Part shown: positions 10,506 to 52,747 of the stretch, in pieces
Position numbering within the stretch: position 1 is the first letter of the stretch
How the letters are laid out: each line of letters begins with the position of its first letter
NCBI GenBank assembly: GCA_951406725.2
Contig: OX597814.1
Span: 222,270,001 to 222,334,000 of the forward strand
Direction: 5' to 3'
DNA length: 64,000 bases
From: Octopus vulgaris
Taxonomy: Eukaryota
Program-made: the position numbers and the translations under genes
The notes under the pieces: generated by a model
Databases searched by the model: none
What the model was told of the DNA's origin: nothing
What the model saw: the letters and a program-made list of their open reading frames with translations, nothing else

Positions 10506-11960
10506 TTGCTTTATATATACCGAGCTTACGCATTATAAATCTATTGTATCTTGACAATGGTTGTCATTGAAAAATATATTTTATTGTTGGAAAGTAAAAT
10601 AAAATATCAGTTAATAGATGAATAGAATAAAGTAAGAAATAAAAAAAATGAAGCAAACTTAACTCTGAAGAGAAAAGTTATAGAATTGTGAGTAAGAATG
10701 TGAAGAAACGAAGCTTAAGGTAACAAGGAAATTACAATAGAATTTAGAGACAATACAGATGGTTTGGGTTTGTCTGAGAAATGCTGAATGTGGTATTTTG
10801 TACTCTCATTTCATTTTAATAGAACAGATTTATAAGGGAAATATAAAGGATAGTGAATTTGTGTGAAAGCTAAATTTACTTTATTGTCGTTGTAGTATAA
10901 TTGTGATTGTTGTTTGATTGTTTGTATACTTAAGTCAATATATGGGTGCATGCGATTATGTCTGTCAATATATATGCACACACGTCTCTCCATCATCTTC
11001 TGTATCTCTTTATGTCTTTACTAATACATAGATATAAGGGCACACGCACATACACAGACACACACACACATACACACCCAAGTACACACACATATACGTA
11101 TCTTTATATATACATATATATACGTATATATACATATATATATTTACATATATATACATATGTACACATACACGCATGCACATATGTATAACTGTATATT
11201 TGCATGTGTGAGTGTGAATGTGAGTGTGTGCGTTAGGAAAAACTAGGTGAAATTTTGCCCTCAATTTAGATTTAATATCACACTTCTCAAATAAACAAGT
11301 GAACTATAAGGCATTATATATTTGAGCAAAAGCTAAAGTGATAATATTGTTATATATTTGTGACTGTACTAAGTTTTATGAATGTGTACATACGTGTGTA
11401 CAACTCTCCTTTTACCCCTCTCAATCACTTTCACTGTACACACAAGGTTTTGCCCTCCTAACTATATCCCATTTTAGGTTGTATCCTACATTATTTGTTT
11501 TAAGTTCCCAAATTTTGCTAGAGAACTTTTGGGAACTTAAAACATATAATATAGGATACAACCTGAAATGGGATATAGTTAGGAGGGCAAAACCTTATAG
11601 AAATAGTAGAGTAGGCTGTCAACTCTGTTCTATGGAAACCTATGAAATTTTAAAGTATCGAAGTAACAAAAATCTACTGAATAATCGTCTAGAGTTATGA
11701 TAATATTGCATACATTCCACAACTAGAACATTTAAATACTTTAAATAGAAATTTAAGCTTTCCGATATTTTCAAACTTTAACTTTTTAATATAATAGTAA
11801 CCTTTAATTTACTTTCATAGTCGACTAGATTAACTTCACTGTAATCTTGAATTTGGATCTTTCTCCAAATCTATTCTAATTTTAACATTTGATATTATTT
11901 CCCCCAGTTATAAAATACGATACCTACTATAAATTAGATGATAGGTTTGTTCCTGGCTTT

Positions 11961-12410
11961 TTGTTCTAGTGACAACCTGAATTCCCTTTATGTATTCTAA
12001 ATTCTTCCTTATTTCTGCAACTAACTTAAATCCCTTTTACAGTTTTCTATCACATCCCCTTACCCAAATTCCTACTACTAAAAATATTTTGATGGCTCTC
12101 AGTTGCAAGTGGGGTTTTGGTCAGTTAGTAGCTGACCTACTACCTCATATGTTCCTAAGACTTTAATGATCTTTCTACACTGACCTAAATTTTTTTGTCA
12201 CCACATATATAAATTGACCCTTTGTTCTAGTGACAACCTGTTCTTCTTTTACATATACTGAATTTTCCTCCTCTTTTCTTCAACTAACTTGAATTCTTTA
12301 CCTGCCCTTACCCCAATCCCTATAACTAAAGAAATTTTCTTACAACAGTTAGTTGTAAACAAAGTTTTGGTCAGTTAGCACCTGAACTACACGATCTCTT
12401 GGTCCTAAGA
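11961..12410. repeat. Two diverged ~260-bp tandem units inside the PLE 3' region
   Basis: ttgttctagtgacaacctg..aactaactt..cccttaccc..gttttggtcagttag..tcctaaga occurs from 11961 and again from 12222. Confidence 0.8.
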
Positions 12411-12499
12411 TTCATATCTACATCTTTATCTGTATGTTTACCTTCCCTAAGATGTTAATTGATTTGAAAACTTTATATTATTGGAAAACCTATATAAAA

Positions 12500-12585
12500 T
12501 TAGCTGAAGATTACTCGGCATCTTAAATCTGCTGTAATATTTACAGCTTTTAATAGAATGTTGTAGTATGAAACAACTGTACTAA
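12500..12585 (+). ncRNA. Type I hammerhead ribozyme motif with extended stem II
   Basis: TTAG-CTGAAGA(12504-10)-59-nt stem II region-GAAA(12570-73)-C-AACT-G-TA(cleavage predicted after 12581)-CTAA. First stem II pair is a T/T mismatch. Confidence 0.75.
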
Positions 12586-12755
12586 ATTACCGGATTCATT
12601 CTTGTTGCTTATTTTTTTATTATAATCACCCCGCATATTTTTATGGGTAATACCATACAAAATTCTGGTGCATCTAAATTAAGTACCATATTCATTTGAA
12701 TCTCTCTCTCTCTCTATATATATATATACATATAAATATATATATATATATATAT

Positions 12756-43697: not shown

Positions 43698-43843
43698 CTG
43701 ATAGTCGAAAGAACGGCAAATAATTGATGTTTCCTCCAAACAGTTCCGAGCACATCTGTTAGGAGTAACTCTGTCGTAGGTTTTCTCGTTATTTCCGAAC
43801 ACAACAGAATAAGGTGTGGGATAGAAGTATTCGAGGTATTCTT
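43698..43843 (-). CDS. Internal coding exon encoding the N-terminal part of a second PAN/Apple domain (146 nt, phase 1-0)
   Basis: Acceptor gcattccag|AAGAATAC and donor TATCAG|gtatgg. Translation (E)EYLEYFYPTPYSVVFGNNEKTYDRVTPNRCARNCLEETSIICRSFDYQ contains C-x3-C-x7-CRSFDY. Phase is compatible with direct splicing from the 52217-51951 exon across an ~8.1 kb intron. Confidence 0.88.
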
Positions 43844-45974
43844 CTGGAATGCACCATGAAAATAACAAATTGATTTTAATAAGATAAGATGCAATAAAAT
43901 ATTACTTCAGATTATTATTTCATTCATATGAAAGCAGTAAAGTACGGTTTCATTTCATGCTTTTGCCTATTCTGTTAAATTGTTTTTATTTGCTCTTTCC
44001 AAACGTGAATGTTAATATATTCATAAAAGTATTTCGTTTCTCACCTGAAACCACTTGACATTACCTAAGGCGTAATGAATGGTCCATAAACTTCTTTTAT
44101 AAAGTGCTAAAACAGTCAACCTAATGAATCTAAATATTTCTCGTATTAATATCATCATGAATATCTCGTATGAATATCACACACTTATACTAACGAGAAA
44201 GTAGCTAGTAATTTTAAGAAAGAGTGTAGAGCAACTACATGTTTCCGGATATCAAAGTATGTAAAATTATCTTGAGACCTGTTTTAGTAGGATTAGTGGA
44301 AAATACATTTTATTATTTAAGAACTACGCTATAAAACTTAGGATTAAGCTAATGCAGTTATTTATAAAAGCGGACTGTAGCCTAAAATCGAAATAACAAT
44401 TCTTGTATGGGACAGCATCTATAAGAATTTTTTAAAGCCTTAAGTCAGTACAAAAGGAAAGTAACTATGGCCTTTGTTGTGGCCTCCGAGAATGGTAGCA
44501 AGAATACCGGAAATTATCTCAGAGACCAATACCTGGGTCGAGATCTTATCACACACCAAACTGCAGTGAAGTCCCCGACAATCAGTTGATCTCTCTCCCA
44601 CAAAGAGAAACGACGTTTCCAGCAGACTTCTTCGCTGGTTCTATCAAATTTTACTTAAATAATTCATCATTCAAAAGCTATCGTAAAAAACCAAATACTG
44701 GAATCAAACTAGAAACCAGGTAGTTGTAAATGGAAGTTTCTTCTACAGAGTTACCTGGCGCAATGAAGTAATATATTACTTTTAAATTTTACTTTTAAAT
44801 ATGATGGCATATTTAGGTTAGTAGAAATTGGTTATTTGATACAAATACATTACTAGCTCTTATTTTATAAAATCTGAAGCATGAAACCAAGGTGGGCAAG
44901 ATTAGTACTTAGAAGGTAATGCAGTATTAACACTCACCTAGGCACTGCGAAACATTCATTTTTTTGTAAATCAAAAACTGTGGCCATAGTACAGTTTATG
45001 CTAATATAATATTTAGTTACAGTAAAATCGAAATAAGTTTTTGCTTAAACAGCATGCAAGCTATGCTCACCGTCAAAGGAATATGAGTGGTTGACAGTGG
45101 AGGAAATTAGTTTTCCGTTATGATAATGTTTCAGCTGCACAGACAACTAAATAAAGAATATGTCTCTAAATTTTTTTTTATTACACCTTAGGGAGATGGC
45201 TTGAAATAAATTGTCTACATAATTGATAAATTTCCTGTATATTTCAAATAGCTATTCATTTCTAGCTATCTCAGAATTATAGCACTACTGTACTGGCAGG
45301 CGTTGAGAGCATGTAGTAATATCACTAGAAAGTTATGAAAACTATTTAAAACTGAGTAACAAATGCTGTATTAAAAGCTTTTAAAATCTGTTTTTTTTTT
45401 CTTTTTGTTTCAGAAATAAAGTAGTTTATGAAAATGAAAGTTATTCTAAATTTTCACAACTTTCAAATTGTTTGCTTTTCTCTCTTAGGTAAATTGTTAT
45501 CACATCTTTGTAAAATGCCGTTTAGTAAAATATTTGTATATGTAAACACACACTCATATGTGTGTGTGTAAAAAAGAGTCTGTATACATGTGGCTGGGAA
45601 GAGATACACACAGAGAGCAAACGAGAGAGGGTTTGTGCCTATGTGTATAATTTAATTTTAAGGGAATCTTCAGATGCTTTATAATTTTAAGGTTTCTTTT
45701 CGTTTAAACTTTATTATTACTTCATGCAGTCCAAAAAGCAATAAATAAATAAAAAACAGAAAAAGGAAGACTAAAATAAACTACGAATTATTTTCAGAGA
45801 CTACTAATTATCTTCCAGACTACCTGAGTTATTGTTGCCAATTGAATCATTTCTCTAAATTATCAACAAAACCATTTTGATGTCTCAAGCTGCAGCGATA
45901 TTTGAATCGACAGAATGTCTCATTTTTGATAATTTGCGTATTTTTATCAGCCACCAAAGTTACCACCAGCATCC

Positions 45975-46032
<58 letters not shown>

Positions 46033-47221
46033 CACTGCTCTATCTTTTCGCTGGTAAATTTTATAATTCATAATTTGCTTTTTATGAAAATGTTTCTCTA
46101 TGTGGATTTTGTTTTTCTTTACATATAATTTCGATTGTTGATATTAGTGCTGCAGTTGTATGAAAATGCTGCAACAGCTCGTCCTATCATTATTAATATT
46201 TTTCTTATTGGTATTGTTATTGTCTATGATGTTATTCTGTATCATGATCATCGTCATCATTATAATTTCACCTCCTTATTGCTAAGATCTTAATAATAAT
46301 TGTTTTTCAGACAATCATGAAATCATATTTTTATAAAATTAATTTCTAATAGTAATCTCATTTGTTATTTTCCGCCTAATTGTTTTCGTAACAAAAACAT
46401 TTAATATATTCATCAATATAATAAAACAAAAACATGAAATATAAATGTGACAGCTGACATGATATGAGCAACAGAATTTATTTTTTTTTTTATAAAAAAG
46501 AACTATTTGTTCTACAAATATAATAAGTGGTCTTTTCATAAGAGCAATCGTTACTTTTAGAAATTTTTGTTGGATCTGCATAATCAACGATGCACGAATG
46601 ATAAATAAATAAATAATAATTACAAGGAAAGAAAGAAGGGCGGGAAATTGAAACACTAAATGAATGAATGAATTAATGAATGGAAGGAAGATAATAATTA
46701 TAAAATAAAATTAGGAAAACGAAAAACAACGGGAGAAGTCCAGTAAACTGTGATATTGATCTTACATAATGATACGTTAGAGAATACTGCCGGGAACAAT
46801 GCTATGCAACTATCAATTAATGTGTTTTCAATAGATTTCTAGTGCGTATCAGGGAGAGATAAAATCAAAGTGTGCGGACGTTCAGAAATGCTTAATGTAA
46901 GAACACATGTAGGATTGTATGTTTATATCTATATATACAAATGGGTGTAAACAAGTATTTGGAAATATAAAAATTCCTGCACAAGTTGGAATTTATATAT
47001 ATATATATATATATTAATGCTTATTTTTCCATAAAGTTATCAAAACAATTTTGTTTAAAACTGAAGGATCACTCAATATTGTTTAGTAAATTGGATATTT
47101 ATTCATTTTACAAGGGAAATATTGAAAGCAACTTCAGACTTTCAGCATACAAGACGTCGTTAGCCTTATGTGGTTATAGGAACATATACACACATGCATA
47201 CGTTCATACATACATACGTAC

Positions 47222-47260
<39 letters not shown>

Positions 47261-47282
47261 CGTGTGTGTGTATGTATGTATA

Positions 47283-47492
47283 TACTCTTTTACTTGTTTC
47301 AGTCATTTGACTGCGGCCATGCTGGAGCACCGCCTTTAATCGAGCAACTCGACCCCGGGACTTATTCTTTTGTAAGCCCAGTACTTATTCTATCGGTCTC
47401 TTTTGCCGAACCGCTAAGTAACGGGGACATAAACACACCAGCATCGGTTGTCAAGCAATGCTAGGGGACAAACAGACACACAAACACACACA

Positions 47493-47550
<58 letters not shown>

Positions 47551-47711
47551 TACGACGGGCTTCTTTCAGTTTCCGTCTACCAAATCCACTCACTAGGCTT
47601 TGGTCGGCCCGAGGCAATAGTAGAAGACACTTGTCCAAGGTGCCACGCAATGGGACTGTACCCGGAACCATGTGGTTGGTAGACAAGCTACTTACCACCC
47701 AGCCACTCCTA
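47283..47711 (-). mobile_element. SINE family A, near full length
   Basis: Reverse complement of 60324-60724. Confidence 0.92.
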
Positions 47712-48208
47712 TATATTTTTTTTCATTTTATTTTATCTAGTTTCAGCTCACGAGCTGTGGCCATGCTGGGACAATATTAAAGAACACATTAAAGTGTCTA
47801 CTCACGATAAATAACATTTAAAACTCTCGTTTGGGCCACCAAAAATATATACATTGAAAATAACAGATTCAACAGTACACGGCCGAGCGAAACGAAAAAA
47901 ATCCCTCACATAGCTTATGTAGCATAAAACTATATATTTAATGGACCAGGTGTATATGTGAACCGGTTTCTGCCTTAATACAGTGATCTTAACATGTTTA
48001 GCACATCTTAACACTTTGAACCATCTATATATACGTATATATCTTCCATGTATAAGTATATATAGCGATAATTCAGAAAGTGACGGGCTTATGTTACAGG
48101 CCTGCGAAACTTTAAGATGCTTGGACCCGAATCAAACTGTTTGATGTAATACATGTAACTCCCACTAAAAGTATTGAGTGCGCTTTTCTTTCATTTGTCT
48201 TTTCATTC

Positions 48209-48279
<71 letters not shown>

Positions 48280-48308
48280 TACACACACACACACACATAT
48301 ACACACAC

Positions 48309-48367
<59 letters not shown>

Positions 48368-48369
<2 letters not shown>

Positions 48370-49479
48370 TAGTTGAATGAATTATCCTAGTATGGATAAT
48401 TCGGTTAACCGATACCCGGGTAGCAAATTCACGTCAGAAAAACACGGTTGAAGCTACATGCCAAGGGCAGAGATCACATGCTTTCGTTTTAAAAAATTAA
48501 ATTGAAGATGTCGACACTTTAAAGAGTCGTTGGTAGCTACCGCTCTCCGTCCTTTTTTCTTTCTTTCTTCTTCCCTTAATCATCAATACAACTTTCGAGT
48601 CCCGTAGACTGAAACAAAGAAATTCTACCTATATTTTTATGAGATATCTTTTGAATCACGGTTTTTGGGAGTTTTTTTTCTTAAAGGGGGAAATTACTAT
48701 TTTATTTAAAATAAAATATTAATCTTTACCACCTTGCCCAAAAGCGACAAAAATAGACAGAGACTATCTCTTTATAGACGATTAGTTGGAATGGGAGGGA
48801 TTGCATCTCATAAGAATAGAAAAACAACCAATAACAAATGGGTTGTACATAATAATGAAACATTTTTAAGAGCATTCATATTCCACTGCAACGTTGAAAT
48901 CCTTTGCCTCAGTCAGGTCAATTAAGTACGTCATCAAGTACTCTCTGAAAGTAAAGGACTAAGCTGCTGTTCAAATAAACAATGATAACGAAATTAATCT
49001 ATATCTAATGGGTAAGTATATTGGACCACCCGAAGCAGTTCCATCCATTTTAGGATTTTCAATAGACGAAAGAGCAACCGCAATAGTGACACAGCAACTT
49101 CATCTACCAGATGAACAATAATATTATAATGAGTATATATGGTTGTCAATGAATTTCATATGAGAACAACTGTTTTCGTTGTGCATCAATGATGACTTTT
49201 GCACAACATGACTTTATGCTGAAGTAACCATGTATTTCACTTGGAACAGCAGTAACAAAGAATGGCAGAAAAGAATGCAATGTTGGAGGCCGTTTGAACG
49301 TTTTCGAAGAAGAAACACTTAGTCGTGTTTCTGTTGCCACACCAAAGATAGGAGAAGTCTATTATTTAAGAATTTTATTGTATGAAGTGCGACATAGTAT
49401 TATTTTTTCTTTTCCGCCGCGCATCAATGTTTTTAACTTGGAGCGCTTCTGGCCAACCGGGTCCCAGCAGGTACATCTA

Positions 49480-49480
<1 letters not shown>
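48368..49480 (+). mobile_element. Internally deleted Helitron with decayed RepHel coding fragments
   Basis: LSLYRRL..GG...NNKWVVHNNETFLRAFIFHCNVEI / SVRSIKYVIKY..KD..NEINLYLMGKYIGPPEA..ILGFSIDER..LHLPDEQ / LSRVSVATPKIGEVYYLRILLYEVR (48734-49395) follow Helitron Rep-region consensus; ends in CTAG at 49477-80. Outer boundaries approximate. Confidence 0.85.
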
Positions 49481-49523
<43 letters not shown>

Positions 49524-49990
49524 GCGAGAATGAAGCAACAAGAATGGATAGGTTTTTAGTACAATCGTTTCATACAAGGACATGTTTTATTAAAAGTTGC
49601 AAAAATTACAGCATATAAACGTGTCTCGTACTCATCAGCTAAAATACATGTGAGTTCTCTAGACATCCTAGTGGTTGAGGCTATACTCATGAAGTAATGT
49701 AGATAATGTAGTATAGCCTCAACCACTAGGATGTCTAGAGAACTCACATGTATTTTAGCTGATGAGTACGAGACACGTTTATATGCTGTAATTTTTGCAA
49801 CTTTTAATAAAACCTGTCCTTGTATGAAACGATTGTACTAAAAACCTATCCATTCTTGTTGCTTCTTTCTCGCTTATAATCACCCCACATTACTGTATTG
49901 TTAAATCAGTATAGTTTTTTTTGGTGCATCTAAGTTAGGTACCATATTCAAGTAAATTCATTTAAATTAACTTGAATCTTTATTGCTTTT

Positions 49991-49992
<2 letters not shown>
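49524..49992 (+). mobile_element. PLE pLTR fold-back insertion in (TA)n: 164-bp inverted repeat containing a hammerhead on each strand
   Basis: 49524-49687 versus 49710-49873 (162/164 identical, 22-nt spacer). The 3' part (cattcttgttgctt..ttataatcacccc..ggtgcatctaa.tta.gtaccatattca) is homologous to 12597-12694 of the GIY-YIG-bearing element. Confidence 0.88.
49753..49843 (+). ncRNA. Type I hammerhead ribozyme, intact core (mirror copy on the minus strand at 49554-49644)
   Basis: TTTTAG-CTGATGA(49759-65)-GTACGAGACA...TGTCCTTGTAT-GAAA(49826-29)-C-GATT-G-TA(cleavage predicted after 49837)-CTAAAA: 6-bp stem I, ~10-bp stem II, minimal stem III. Confidence 0.85.
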
Positions 49993-50023
<31 letters not shown>

Positions 50024-50710
50024 CGTTTAAATACGTTTATTGGCTAAACTGGCAATATCACCATTCCGAAATATAACAATATATATATATATTAGTAGGC
50101 ATAAATTACGGAGAGCGAAACCTTTTTTTGCACTTGTGTTAATGTTTCGCTGATTAACACAACTACACATGCGCACACATATGTGTGTGTGTGTATAATT
50201 ATATATGTATGTCTGTGTGTACGTTATGTAAGATGTAAGACGGCCTATTAGTTAGTGAATTGCACTCACGAATGTCAAACCGTGGTTTCGATTCTCCAAC
50301 TGAGCGTCATTGTGCTCTTCAGCATAGAACATCTCAGTTTTACTGCTAGCATTTCCATATCTAGCGTATGGCGCAATCCACAACTTTACAGACAATATCG
50401 ATTTGATGGAAAGAGTGACGTAATGTACAGCTCAAGATTTCAATTGCCACGAGCAAAAAATCTGCGCAGGTTGTTTATCGAGAAATAGCAGAACGCTCTT
50501 CTTCTGTCTAATACAAGAGAGGCCGCGGTATATATACATGTATATAAATTCATAGATGCAATCACACAAGCAACGTACCGCACTAACCCACATACACATA
50601 CAAACACACACACATATATATATATATAAATGAATAGATATGTATATATAGTTGTATATATCTATCTATCTACATATATATATGTGTGTATGTATGTATA
50701 TATGTATATT

Positions 50711-50777
<67 letters not shown>

Positions 50778-50784
50778 GTGTGTC

Positions 50785-50988
50785 TATTCTTTTATTCTTT
50801 TACATGTTCCAGGCGTTTGGCTGCGGCCACGCCTTTAGACGAAAAACTCGACCTTAGGATTTATTCTTTGTAAGCTTAGTAATTATTCTATCGGTTTCTT
50901 AGGCCGAACCGCTAGGCTACGAGGACGCAAACACATCAACATCCACGTCAAGCGATGCCGGAGGGACAAATACACACACACACACACT

Positions 50989-51052
<64 letters not shown>

Positions 51053-51212
51053 CACGCACATATATGTTTGTCTGCCTGTGTTTGTACCCCCACCATCGCT
51101 TGACGACCGTTGTTGGTGCGTTTACACCCCCATAACATAGCAGTAGGATGAGTACTAGGCTTAAAAGACTAAGTAGTCCCGAGTTTAGTTTCTTCGACTT
51201 AAGGCGGTGCTC
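50785..51212. mobile_element. Two 3' halves of SINE family A in opposite orientation joined by (CA)n
   Basis: Minus-strand half at 50785-50970 and plus-strand half at 51062-51212. Confidence 0.7.
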
Positions 51213-51349
51213 CAACAATTCTCCATACTTCACCCAAGTGTACACGGAATTACCTATCGGAAGAATTCATTGAATGACTAGCAATAAATAGTAGTCAAAG
51301 AGATTAAATACTAATGAATGTTAACCGTTAACTGAAACTTAACTGAGAG

Positions 51350-51841
51350 CCAATAAGGTATATCCTTCCAAGGATGGAAGGCAAAGTCGGCCTCGGCGGT
51401 ATTTGAATTACGAACATGAAGACAAAAAATACCTATTTCTTTACTACCCACAAGGGGCTAAACAGAGAGGACAAACAAGGACAGACACACGGATTAAGTC
51501 GATTATATCGACCCCAGTGCGTAACTGGTATTTATTTAACCGACCCCGAAAGGATGAAAGGCGACCTCGGCGGAATTTGAATTCAGAACGTAACGGCAGA
51601 CAAAATACCTATTTCTTTACTACCCACAAGTGGCTAAACAGAGAGGACAAACAAGGACAGACAAACGGATTAAGTCGATTATATCGACTCCAGTGCGTAA
51701 CTGGTACTTAATTTATCGACCCTGAAAGGATGAAAAGCAAAGTCGACCCCAGTTCAAAGTTGAACTCAGAACGTAGCGGCAGACGAAATACCGCTAAGCA
51801 TTTCGGCCGACGAGCTAGCGTTTCTGCCAGTTCGCCGCCTT
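51350..51841 (-). mobile_element. SINE family C multimer (about 2.5 tandem ~178-bp body units)
   Basis: aaaatacctatttctttactacccacaag...aggacagac..cggattaagtcgattatatcgac repeats at ~51427 and ~51602; head ttctgccagttcgccgcctt at 51822-41. Confidence 0.9.
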
Positions 51842-51950
51842 ATGATGATTGTGATAATAATGATAATAGTAACATCAACAACAACAACAGCAATTGATAA
51901 TCTTTCCTGACATTTATAATGTTACGCATAACTGATACCAATTAACTTAC

Positions 51951-52217
51951 CTTTCAGCTCGTAATGCATGACTCGAAAGTTGCTATCATCGACAGGCGCA
52001 ATTCCATGAACATTTGCAGCAATATATTTGCTCATATGACATGACTGATCGGCAAACAAGTAATCAAATGTTGCACACTTGAAAGTATGTTCCGCTAGAC
52101 AGAGCTGTGCGCATGCGCCCAACGTCAGTCCTAACATGATCTTTTTGTACAGCTGCACGCCCTCTAGTGGTCGCAATGATCCGAAGCCATAATTCACAAA
52201 TTTGGAGAGTGGTCCTT
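51951..52217 (-). CDS. Internal coding exon encoding a complete PAN/Apple domain (267 nt, phase 1-1 symmetric)
   Basis: Acceptor tttatatttgcag|AAGGAC at 52218/52217 and donor GAAAG|gtaagt at 51951/51950. Open frame (E)GPLSKFVNYGFGSLRPLEGVQLYKKIMLGLTLGACAQLCLAEHTFKCATFDYLFADQSCHMSKYIAANVHGIAPVDDSNFRVMHYELK shows the PAN pattern C-x3-C-x6-C-x2-FDY-x6-C-x2-S...HYE. Confidence 0.9.
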
Positions 52218-52317
52218 CTGCAAATATAAATGAATTAATGAATTAATGAATGGAACGCAGATAATAATTATAAAGTAAAATTAGGAAAAAAGCAACAGTT
52301 GAGATGTAAAATTTTAT

Positions 52318-52487
52318 AGGCGTAGGAGTGGCTGTGTGGTAAGTAGCTTGTTTACCAACCACATGGTTCCGGGTTCAGTCCCACAGCGTCGCACCTTGGG
52401 CAAGTGTCTTCTACTATAGCCTAGGGCCGACCAAAGCCTTGTGAGTGGATTTGGGAGACGGAAACTGAAAGAAGCCCGTCGTATATA

Positions 52488-52544
<57 letters not shown>

Positions 52545-52747
52545 CTGTGTTTGTCCCCCCAACATCGCTTGACAACCGATGCTGGTGTGTTTACGTCCCC
52601 GTAACTTAGCGGTTCGGTAAAAGAGACCGATAGATTAAGTACTAGGCTTAAAAAGAATAAGTCCCGGGGTCGATTTCCTCGACTAAAGGCGGTACTCCCT
52701 CATGGCCACAGTCAAATGACTGAAACAAGTAAAAGAGTAAAAGAGTA
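52318..52747 (+). mobile_element. SINE family A, full length
   Basis: ggcgtaggagtggctgtgtggtaagtagc..ggttcagtccc (Pol III-like boxes), caccttgggcaagtg, internal (TA)(TG), tail (gtaaaaga)n. Confidence 0.93.

What the first reader, a model, noticed from the sequence alone, without database searches (positions are those of the whole stretch)
49524..49873. 164-bp palindrome holding a hammerhead ribozyme on both strands, each preceded by its own antisense, inside a gene intron
Seen: an intact type I hammerhead at 49753-49843 (+) and its mirror at 49554-49644 (-), in the intron between the two PAN exons. Whichever strand is transcribed, the antisense arm is made first and the ribozyme second. Inference: the host pre-mRNA forms a 164-bp duplex that sequesters the ribozyme and prevents cleavage. 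The duplex would also be a good ADAR or Dicer substrate, and coleoid cephalopods are known for extensive A-to-I editing. Editing or unwinding could in principle release ribozyme activity, which is speculative.
Basis: partly seen in the sequence, partly recalled or inferred. Interest (0 to 1): 0.7.

Follow-up and report, generated by a model that had tools for sequence, protein, structure and literature searches.

The report
Back-to-back Penelope retroelement ends in intron
The palindrome is one of hundreds of insertions of a Penelope-type retrotransposon in this genome, made of two back-to-back copies of the element's ribozyme-bearing end, so it is likely a by-product of how the element inserts rather than a host switch; that 53 of 53 such pairs join one short and one long end suggests a testable insertion mechanism.

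Summary
In detail: a 164-bp inverted repeat (49524-49687 / 49710-49873, 2 mismatches, 22-nt loop) with hammerhead motifs at 49753-49843(+) and 49554-49644(-), in an 8.1-kb intron of a minus-strand PAN-domain gene. The insert runs 49524-49992, sits in a (TA)n tract and is the 3' pseudo-LTR of a young Hydra-clade Penelope-like element. A full copy elsewhere encodes RT plus a GIY-YIG-type endonuclease. There are 891 exact copies of the ribozyme's 3' half; 42 of 61 loci examined carry this same head-to-head arrangement. Inverted PLE insertions and paired opposite-strand hammerheads are in print. The ribozyme is a PLE-type variant (2-bp helix III, G·U at 10.1/11.1), probably weak without a partner, so the hairpin need not be a safety catch. 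Editing was not tested. One point goes beyond the papers I found. In 53 of 53 pairs one arm ends short and the other carries a 119-nt tail. Arms match at family-variable sites (648 of 653), and either arm can be the longer. This fits both target strands priming at two fixed sites on one RNA (inferred, about 0.5).

The parts
49524..49707 (-). Short-ended arm: 5'-truncated copy of the PLE 3' end (pseudo-LTR), element positions about -147 to +36 relative to the ribozyme cut site; position 49523 is an extra letter not in the element
   Evidence: the same extra G is at 30 of 53 short ends
49554..49644 (-). Hammerhead motif, the copy present in the host pre-mRNA; predicted cut after 49560
   Evidence: mirror of the + copy; folds
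49688..49709 (.). 22-nt loop: 20 extra element bases of the short arm plus a 2-nt junction
49710..49992 (+). Long-ended arm: 5'-truncated copy of the PLE 3' end, positions -127 to +155
   Evidence: 99.3% identical to the natural full copy in L031
49753..49843 (+). Hammerhead motif (type I topology, PLE-type variant); predicted cut after A49837; helix III segment 49829-49836 is self-complementary over 8 bp
   Evidence: Rfam RF00163, 20 bits, E 0.014; self-duplex -5.8 kcal/mol
49874..49992 (+). 119-nt tail present on one arm only
49482..49522 (.). (TA)n target tract, left part
49993..50021 (.). (TA)n target tract, right part
51951..52220 (-). Host exon with PAN domain, upstream of the intron 43844-51950
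43698..43843 (-). Host exon with the start of a second PAN domain, downstream of the intron

Best explanation
The feature is a recent insertion of a Hydra-clade Penelope-like retrotransposon into a (TA)n tract in an intron, made of two 5'-truncated copies of the element's ribozyme-bearing 3' end joined head to head, and the hairpin is likely a by-product of insertion with no role for the host gene. Shown: identity with the end of a full element, copy number, (TA)n target, inverted layout in most copies, one short and one tailed end per pair, and splicing across the intron. Inferred mechanism (about 0.5): the element protein nicks both strands of the (TA)n tract. The two 3' ends prime reverse transcription at two fixed sites 119 nt apart (+36 and +155) on one RNA. 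Both cDNAs run towards the element's 5' end, stop early and are joined to each other by host repair. Inferred effect: the pre-mRNA forms a 164-bp hairpin that buries a ribozyme which would be weak anyway; the hairpin may be edited and leaves with the intron.
For: The right arm is 99.3% identical to the pseudo-LTR flanking a 954-aa RT-endonuclease ORF. RWK, DKT, CxCX5C, CxxC..E and CxH are present and are kept in the 12 of 30 homologues I aligned (the full CxCX5C spacing in 11 of 12); these motifs define Hydra in PMC8557442 section 11. There are 891 exact matches to 32 nt of the ribozyme and 0 for the reversed control. The first 100 matches form 61 loci: 41 simple inverted pairs, 1 complex, 1 rearranged, 18 single-arm. 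End types: 53 of 53 pairs have one short and one tailed arm; single arms end short in 10 and long in 8, so independent choice would give about half mixed. A sister family gives 6 of 6. Arms disagree at 5 of 653 comparisons at 20 variable sites, against 27% (minimum 17%) in 1000 shuffles. The tailed arm is longer in 19, the short arm in 19 - see next: tailed longer 19, short longer 15, within 10 nt 19 of 53 (shuffle mean 1.6, maximum 8). In vitro, another PLE protein cuts and extends both strands and starts at two adjacent internal sites (PMC11167929).
Against: No biochemistry for this family. The window's own arms differ at one family-variable site (49531/49866), one of the 5 disagreements, although they share a private variant. 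Matching arms can also come from fold-back copying, gene conversion, or two RNAs of one donor. The excess of equal-length arms is also what fold-back predicts. Arm lengths are rough, because the walk stops at mismatches to one natural copy and breaks in a repeat near -2500. Twelve of the 53 pairs and all 6 sister-family pairs were found through a tailed arm. This locus's central junction was not confirmed in independent DNA. PMC11167929 saw no difference in start site between strands in vitro. Absence of a host role is argued from generality, not tested.
Confidence: 0.85

Rival explanations
1. Same element, but the palindrome arises by fold-back: one cDNA or an antisense template self-primes and is copied back, and the endonuclease or a TA microhomology trims one end (self-priming model of PMC3846280; EN-mediated resolution in PMC8557442).
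For: Arms share variants (648 of 653); 19 of 53 pairs turn at the same element position; 9 of 53 junctions show microhomology; the element has TATA at the short end.
Against: Fold-back from the tailed arm requires it to be at least as long, yet the short arm is longer in 15 of 53, by 1.6 kb or more in L064, L098 and L108. Fold-back from a short-ended cDNA would give short+short pairs (0 of 53), although 10 of 18 single arms are short-ended. Short ends mostly carry an extra G (30 of 53), which looks more like initiation than trimming (inference). Later asymmetric deletions or two fold-back routes could rescue the model.
Confidence: 0.3
2. One reading: the hairpin is a functional device that sequesters an active ribozyme in the host pre-mRNA, with ADAR editing or unwinding able to release cleavage.
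For: Sequestration is predicted (133 kcal/mol); the intron is transcribed on the strand carrying one sense ribozyme; palindromic repeats and lizard Penelope are heavily edited (PMC5625713 passages). Selection could favour intronic copies whose ribozyme is buried.
Against: The same layout is in 42 of 61 loci (their genic context was not checked). The insertion is young (2 differences in 149 compared sites between arms). The single arm folds no better than shuffles (z +0.2), helix III hardly forms, and metazoan PLE ribozymes cleave poorly in vitro (PMC4209133; PMC11167929).
Confidence: 0.05
3. Assembly artefact (fold-back chimeric long read) or a non-autonomous DNA transposon with long terminal inverted repeats.
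For: Near-perfect palindromes are a known long-read artefact (own knowledge); the junction of this locus was not confirmed in an independent DNA run.
Against: Symmetry stops at the element ends, the flanks differ, and only one arm has the tail. The arms differ at two sites. All 53 loci have different centres but the same two outer ends, and the arms are the 3' end of an RT-encoding element.
Confidence: 0.03

Closest known systems
Hydra clade of C-terminal EN+ Penelope-like elements (Craig et al. 2021, PMC8557442), including Hydra-1_Obim of Octopus bimaculoides
   Same: RWK, DKT, CxCX5C, CxxC and CxH motifs, C-terminal endonuclease, hammerhead in the 3' end, (TA)n targets, inverted 5'-truncated copy, tail on one end.
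   Different: The unit is about 4.86 kb (Hydra elements are generally under 3 kb; Hydra-1_Obim is 2507 bp). The ORF has two Asn-rich inserts. The ribozyme sequence differs from that listed for Hydra-1_Obim, and two 12-16-nt probes were absent from the supplement. The tail is 119 nt rather than 30-40 nt and ends about 50 nt upstream of the first ATG.
PLE hammerheads (Cervera and De la Pena 2014, PMC4209133)
   Same: Type I core in the pseudo-LTR, long helix II, small self-complementary helix III suited to dimers. The paper states that dual motifs occur 100-700 bp apart on opposite strands, which is this observation.
   Different: G·U instead of the conserved G10.1-C11.1, no extra nucleotide before helix II, and a very long loop II (about 39 nt).
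Adineta vaga Penelope elements (Arkhipova et al. 2013, PMC3846280)
   Same: Head-to-head inverted pLTRs, tail on one of them, Asn-rich inserts between RT and endonuclease.
   Different: Few copies there, and explained by self-priming on an antisense template; here hundreds of young copies allow counts that sit badly with a single fold-back route.
Poseidon of Anolis in vitro (Frangieh et al. 2024, PMC11167929)
   Same: Two internal reverse-transcription start sites defining the tail; AT-rich target; both strands cut and extended.
   Different: Different clade; start sites lie inside the ORF; the parts I read do not link the two sites to inverted insertions.
L1 twin priming (recalled, not read here)
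   Same: Both target strands prime on one RNA and give an inversion.
   Different: In L1 the second primer lands upstream and the segments hardly overlap; here both would start near the 3' end at fixed sites, giving an overlapping palindrome.
Animal non-LTR retrozymes (PMC7229834; bioRxiv 10.64898/2026.07.22.740005)
   Same: Type I hammerhead in a short, non-coding, repeated unit related to PLE ends.
   Different: Retrozymes are head-to-tail tandem repeats; this is head-to-head and a truncated copy of a coding element.

Membership tests
Penelope-like element (EN+) | Single ORF with telomerase-like RT and C-terminal GIY-YIG endonuclease flanked by pseudo-LTRs | tested here: met
   L031 ORF of 954 aa from ATG with YRDD and an aligned VIY...YLG endonuclease region, preceded by one arm copy and with another at the element's 3' end. 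Pfam gave no hit; assignment rests on motifs, homologues and resemblance by eye to the Hydra alignment in the supplement.
Penelope-like element (EN+) | 5'-truncated insertions with inverted adjacent copy and optional tail | tested here: met
   42 of 61 loci inverted; tail on exactly one arm in 53 of 53 pairs
Hydra clade | RWK and DKT motifs | tested here: met
   residues 37 and 124; DKT invariant and RWK kept in the 13-sequence alignment
Hydra clade | CxCX5C linker; CxxC and CxH around conserved E and N; no CCHH | tested here: met
   residues 815, 912, 942; alignment; absence of CCHH judged by eye
Hydra clade | Insertion into (TA)n | tested here: met
   both flanks here and nearly all ends printed
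Hydra clade | Generally short (<3 kb), a typical rather than strict trait | tested here: not met
   unit of 4859 nt owing to Asn-rich inserts and a long 3' UTR
Hydra clade | Placement inside the clade in an RT phylogeny with named members | not tested
   no tree with named Hydra sequences was built
Canonical type I hammerhead | Catalytic core and three-helix topology | tested here: met
   core intact, helix I 6 bp, helix II 7+3 bp, helix III 2 bp; a sister family keeps the core, has a fully Watson-Crick self-complementary helix III in 26 of 30 arms and a double change in helix II
Canonical type I hammerhead | 4-bp helix II with G10.1-C11.1 and loop 1/loop 2 tertiary contact | tested here: not met
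   G·U at 10.1/11.1, long helix and loop II, no extended helix I beyond 6 bp in the folds; Rfam score below gathering
Canonical type I hammerhead | Self-cleavage | not testable with these tools
   needs in vitro transcription
Non-LTR retrozyme | Head-to-tail tandem units each with a hammerhead | tested here: not met
   head-to-head pair; no tandem copy at this locus
ADAR-edited or Dicer-processed hairpin | Locus-specific A-to-G clusters or 21-23-nt reads | tested here: inconclusive
   only contigs were available and family copies cannot be told apart

The most novel reading that the evidence does not exclude
Inverted Penelope insertions are made by two-site twin priming: both nicked target strands prime on one RNA at two fixed start sites, always one each, so every inverted insertion has one short and one tailed end and two arms with the same variants. 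This young family, with an estimated 370 such pairs, would make the open question of how PLE inverted structures form directly countable, and would be a steady source of near-perfect double-stranded RNA in an octopus-type genome.
Probability: 0.5. Interest if true: 0.6.

Novelty: new member of a known kind. Interest (0 to 1): 0.33.

Why it matters
For this locus, little: it is an ordinary young transposon insertion whose shape and ribozyme are already described. For the family, more. How PLEs make their inverted structures is named as unresolved in PMC8557442, and the strict short+long pairing, matching arms and two-way length asymmetry counted here separate the proposed models and give clear in vitro predictions. 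Hundreds of such hairpins, some intronic, are also candidates for the high hyper-editing reported in octopus.

Tried and rejected
An Rfam gathering search of the whole window found nothing. Pfam found nothing on the element ORF and no real family on two homologues. The run search listed no holder on record as RNA; the runs used are guessed to be RNA. Contigs laid on the intron cover the arms but cannot be assigned to this locus; two low-depth contigs with many differences (16 in 139 nt; 24 in 234 nt) may be edited reads or older copies, and the per-run change tallies cover the whole 8.9 kb, so I drew nothing from them. Editing and the locus junction in other individuals stay open. Earlier findings of this scan: none by sequence or by words. 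Literature searches listed no paper proposing two-site twin priming for PLE inversions; the library lacks most subscription papers (for example the Evgen'ev and Arkhipova 2005 and Arkhipova 2006 papers cited by those I read), and supplements of PMC11167929 and PMC3846280 were not read, so the idea may be in print. Retrozyme rejected (no tandem). MITE rejected (arms are the end of an RT element). No complex or structure prediction was run, as it would not change the verdict. Loci left out of the 53 pairs: the complex L031 locus, rearranged L105, and loci that repeat listed ones or had no partner within 1.5 kb.

Full report
Observation. The inverted repeat is real: 49524-49687 pairs with 49710-49873 over 164 bp with two mismatches and a 22-nt loop, folding at -292.5 kcal/mol, z = -42. 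Each arm holds a hammerhead core. The flanking exons match PAN_1. One contig in each of three runs guessed to be RNA joins them directly, with GT..AG ends and a continuous frame on the minus strand. The intron is 43844-51950, and the ribozyme copy in the pre-mRNA is the minus one (49554-49644).

What it is. The arm is a repeat: 1308 first-look candidates and 99% identical top copies in the 2.8-Gb genome, and 891 exact matches to 32 nt of the ribozyme against 0 for the reversed control. At one locus (L031) the arm lies before and, about 1.5 kb later, after a 954-aa ORF. The ORF has YRDD, RWK, DKT, CxCX5C, CxxC..E and CxH, kept in the 12 of 30 homologues that I aligned, with one lacking a residue in the CxCX5C spacing. 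These motifs and the (TA)n target are the stated marks of the Hydra clade of Penelope-like elements (PMC8557442, section 11 read whole). That paper's supplement lists one octopus family, Hydra-1_Obim, of 2507 bp with a different ribozyme. The family here is a different, longer one with two Asn-rich inserts. The one named protein hit is from Octopus sinensis, which fits an octopus-type genome. No tree was built.

The arrangement is the family's norm. The first 100 of the 891 matches, in genome order, form 61 loci. After fetching them (and earlier loci), 41 are simple head-to-head pairs, 1 is complex, 1 rearranged and 18 single-armed. That extrapolates to about 540 loci and 370 pairs. The core-to-core distance in 36 pairs runs from 102 to 5502 nt; this locus, at 264, is among the 4 shortest. 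'Antisense first on either strand' follows from the geometry of any such pair. It is also in print: dual PLE hammerheads 100-700 bp apart on opposite strands (PMC4209133, parts 1-2 of 4 read); an inverted truncated copy with a tail on one end (PMC8557442 passages; PMC3846280 passages).

The ribozyme. Helix I is 6 bp. Helix II is 7+3 bp, with G·U at the normally G-C pair 10.1/11.1 and a long loop. Helix III is 2 bp, with a monomer pairing probability of 0.02, but its eight bases pair fully with a second copy (-5.8 kcal/mol). A sister family, 74% identical, keeps the core, has a fully Watson-Crick version of this self-complementary segment in 26 of 30 arms, and shows a double change in helix II. 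This suggests the structure is kept for the element's sake. The single arm folds no better than shuffles. Metazoan PLE ribozymes cleave poorly in vitro even as dimers, and the anole one needed its protein (PMC11167929, parts 1-2 of 4). PMC7229834 (passages) notes that 2-bp helix III motifs with tertiary contacts cleave well in invertebrate retrozymes, so activity cannot be excluded without an assay. In the host-strand RNA the ribozyme fold costs 133 kcal/mol against the hairpin. Sequestration is therefore predicted, but of a motif that probably does little alone.

How the palindrome is made. In 53 of 53 pairs (41 from the ordered list, 12) one arm ends near +36 and the other at +155 relative to the cut site. 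Single arms use either end (10 short, 8 long), so independent choice would give about half mixed pairs. The sister family gives 6 of 6 (found through tailed arms). The two arms agree at 648 of 653 comparisons at 20 family-variable sites, whereas shuffled partners disagree at 27%, so both arms come from one template or donor. One of the five disagreements is at this very locus. The tailed arm reaches further into the element in 19 pairs, the short arm in 15, and 19 end within 10 nt of each other (shuffle mean 1.6; a rough measure). A single fold-back route predicts only one direction of asymmetry. Two primers on one RNA at two fixed sites, with the cDNAs joined end to end, accounts for all three counts. 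It also matches the in vitro finding that a PLE protein cuts and extends both strands and starts at two adjacent sites, though that paper saw no strand difference in start site. I put this at about 0.5, fold-back variants at 0.3, and the rest on gene conversion or two RNAs of one donor. My eight literature searches listed no paper with this model, but older subscription papers were out of reach.

The hairpin and the burial of the ribozyme are sound predictions. Editing is plausible by analogy (PMC5625713 passages) but untested here, since contigs over the arms cannot be assigned to one locus. Nothing supports a host switch or release by editing. The insertion is young, generic in form, and the exons are spliced across it.

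Other papers seen: PMC6155905 (passages) and bioRxiv 10.64898/2026.07.22.740005 (part 1 of 5), used only for the retrozyme comparison.

Verdict. Real feature, new member of a known kind: a truncated, inverted Hydra-clade PLE insertion. Interest 0.33, most of it from the family-wide end-pairing rule and its mechanistic test rather than from this locus.

Noticed in passing
window 11300-12720 (+): A copy of a sister PLE family: endonuclease C-terminus 69% identical to the L031 protein, 3' UTR, hammerhead at about 12497-12587 and tail ending at a simple repeat. 2838 first-look candidates in the genome; it also forms short+long inverted pairs.
   Followed up: partly
window 48610-49480 (+): An older dispersed repeat (74-82% identity to copies elsewhere) with broken frames that look like a Helitron Rep/helicase segment and a CTAG end just before the (TA)n into which the PLE inserted. 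The Helitron label is recalled from motifs; Pfam and the Atlas gave no hit.
   Followed up: partly
L031 (G000:C2:37618500-37628400): Complex insertion with four pseudo-LTRs, a 2.2-kb perfect inverted stretch, one intact ORF and one frameshifted ORF with a templated duplication.
   Followed up: partly
short ends of 53 arms: 30 carry an extra G giving a CGCG repeat where the element has CGCT; it may be a two-base slip at the start of reverse transcription, reminiscent of telomerase-like reiteration (speculation).
   Followed up: no
junctions of L085, L096, L013, L018, L089: Short inserts between arms are copies of neighbouring sequence, as in polymerase theta-type end joining (label recalled).
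   Followed up: no
window 40675 (+): A lone CUGAUGAGUCC hammerhead-like half core; no GAAA/cut-site partner was looked for.
   Followed up: no
window 47064-47950, 50800-51800, 52300-52700: Very high-copy short repeats (SINE-like) in the same intron and beside it, including a 178-nt inverted pair 4.6 kb apart across the upstream exon; further potential dsRNA.
   Followed up: no
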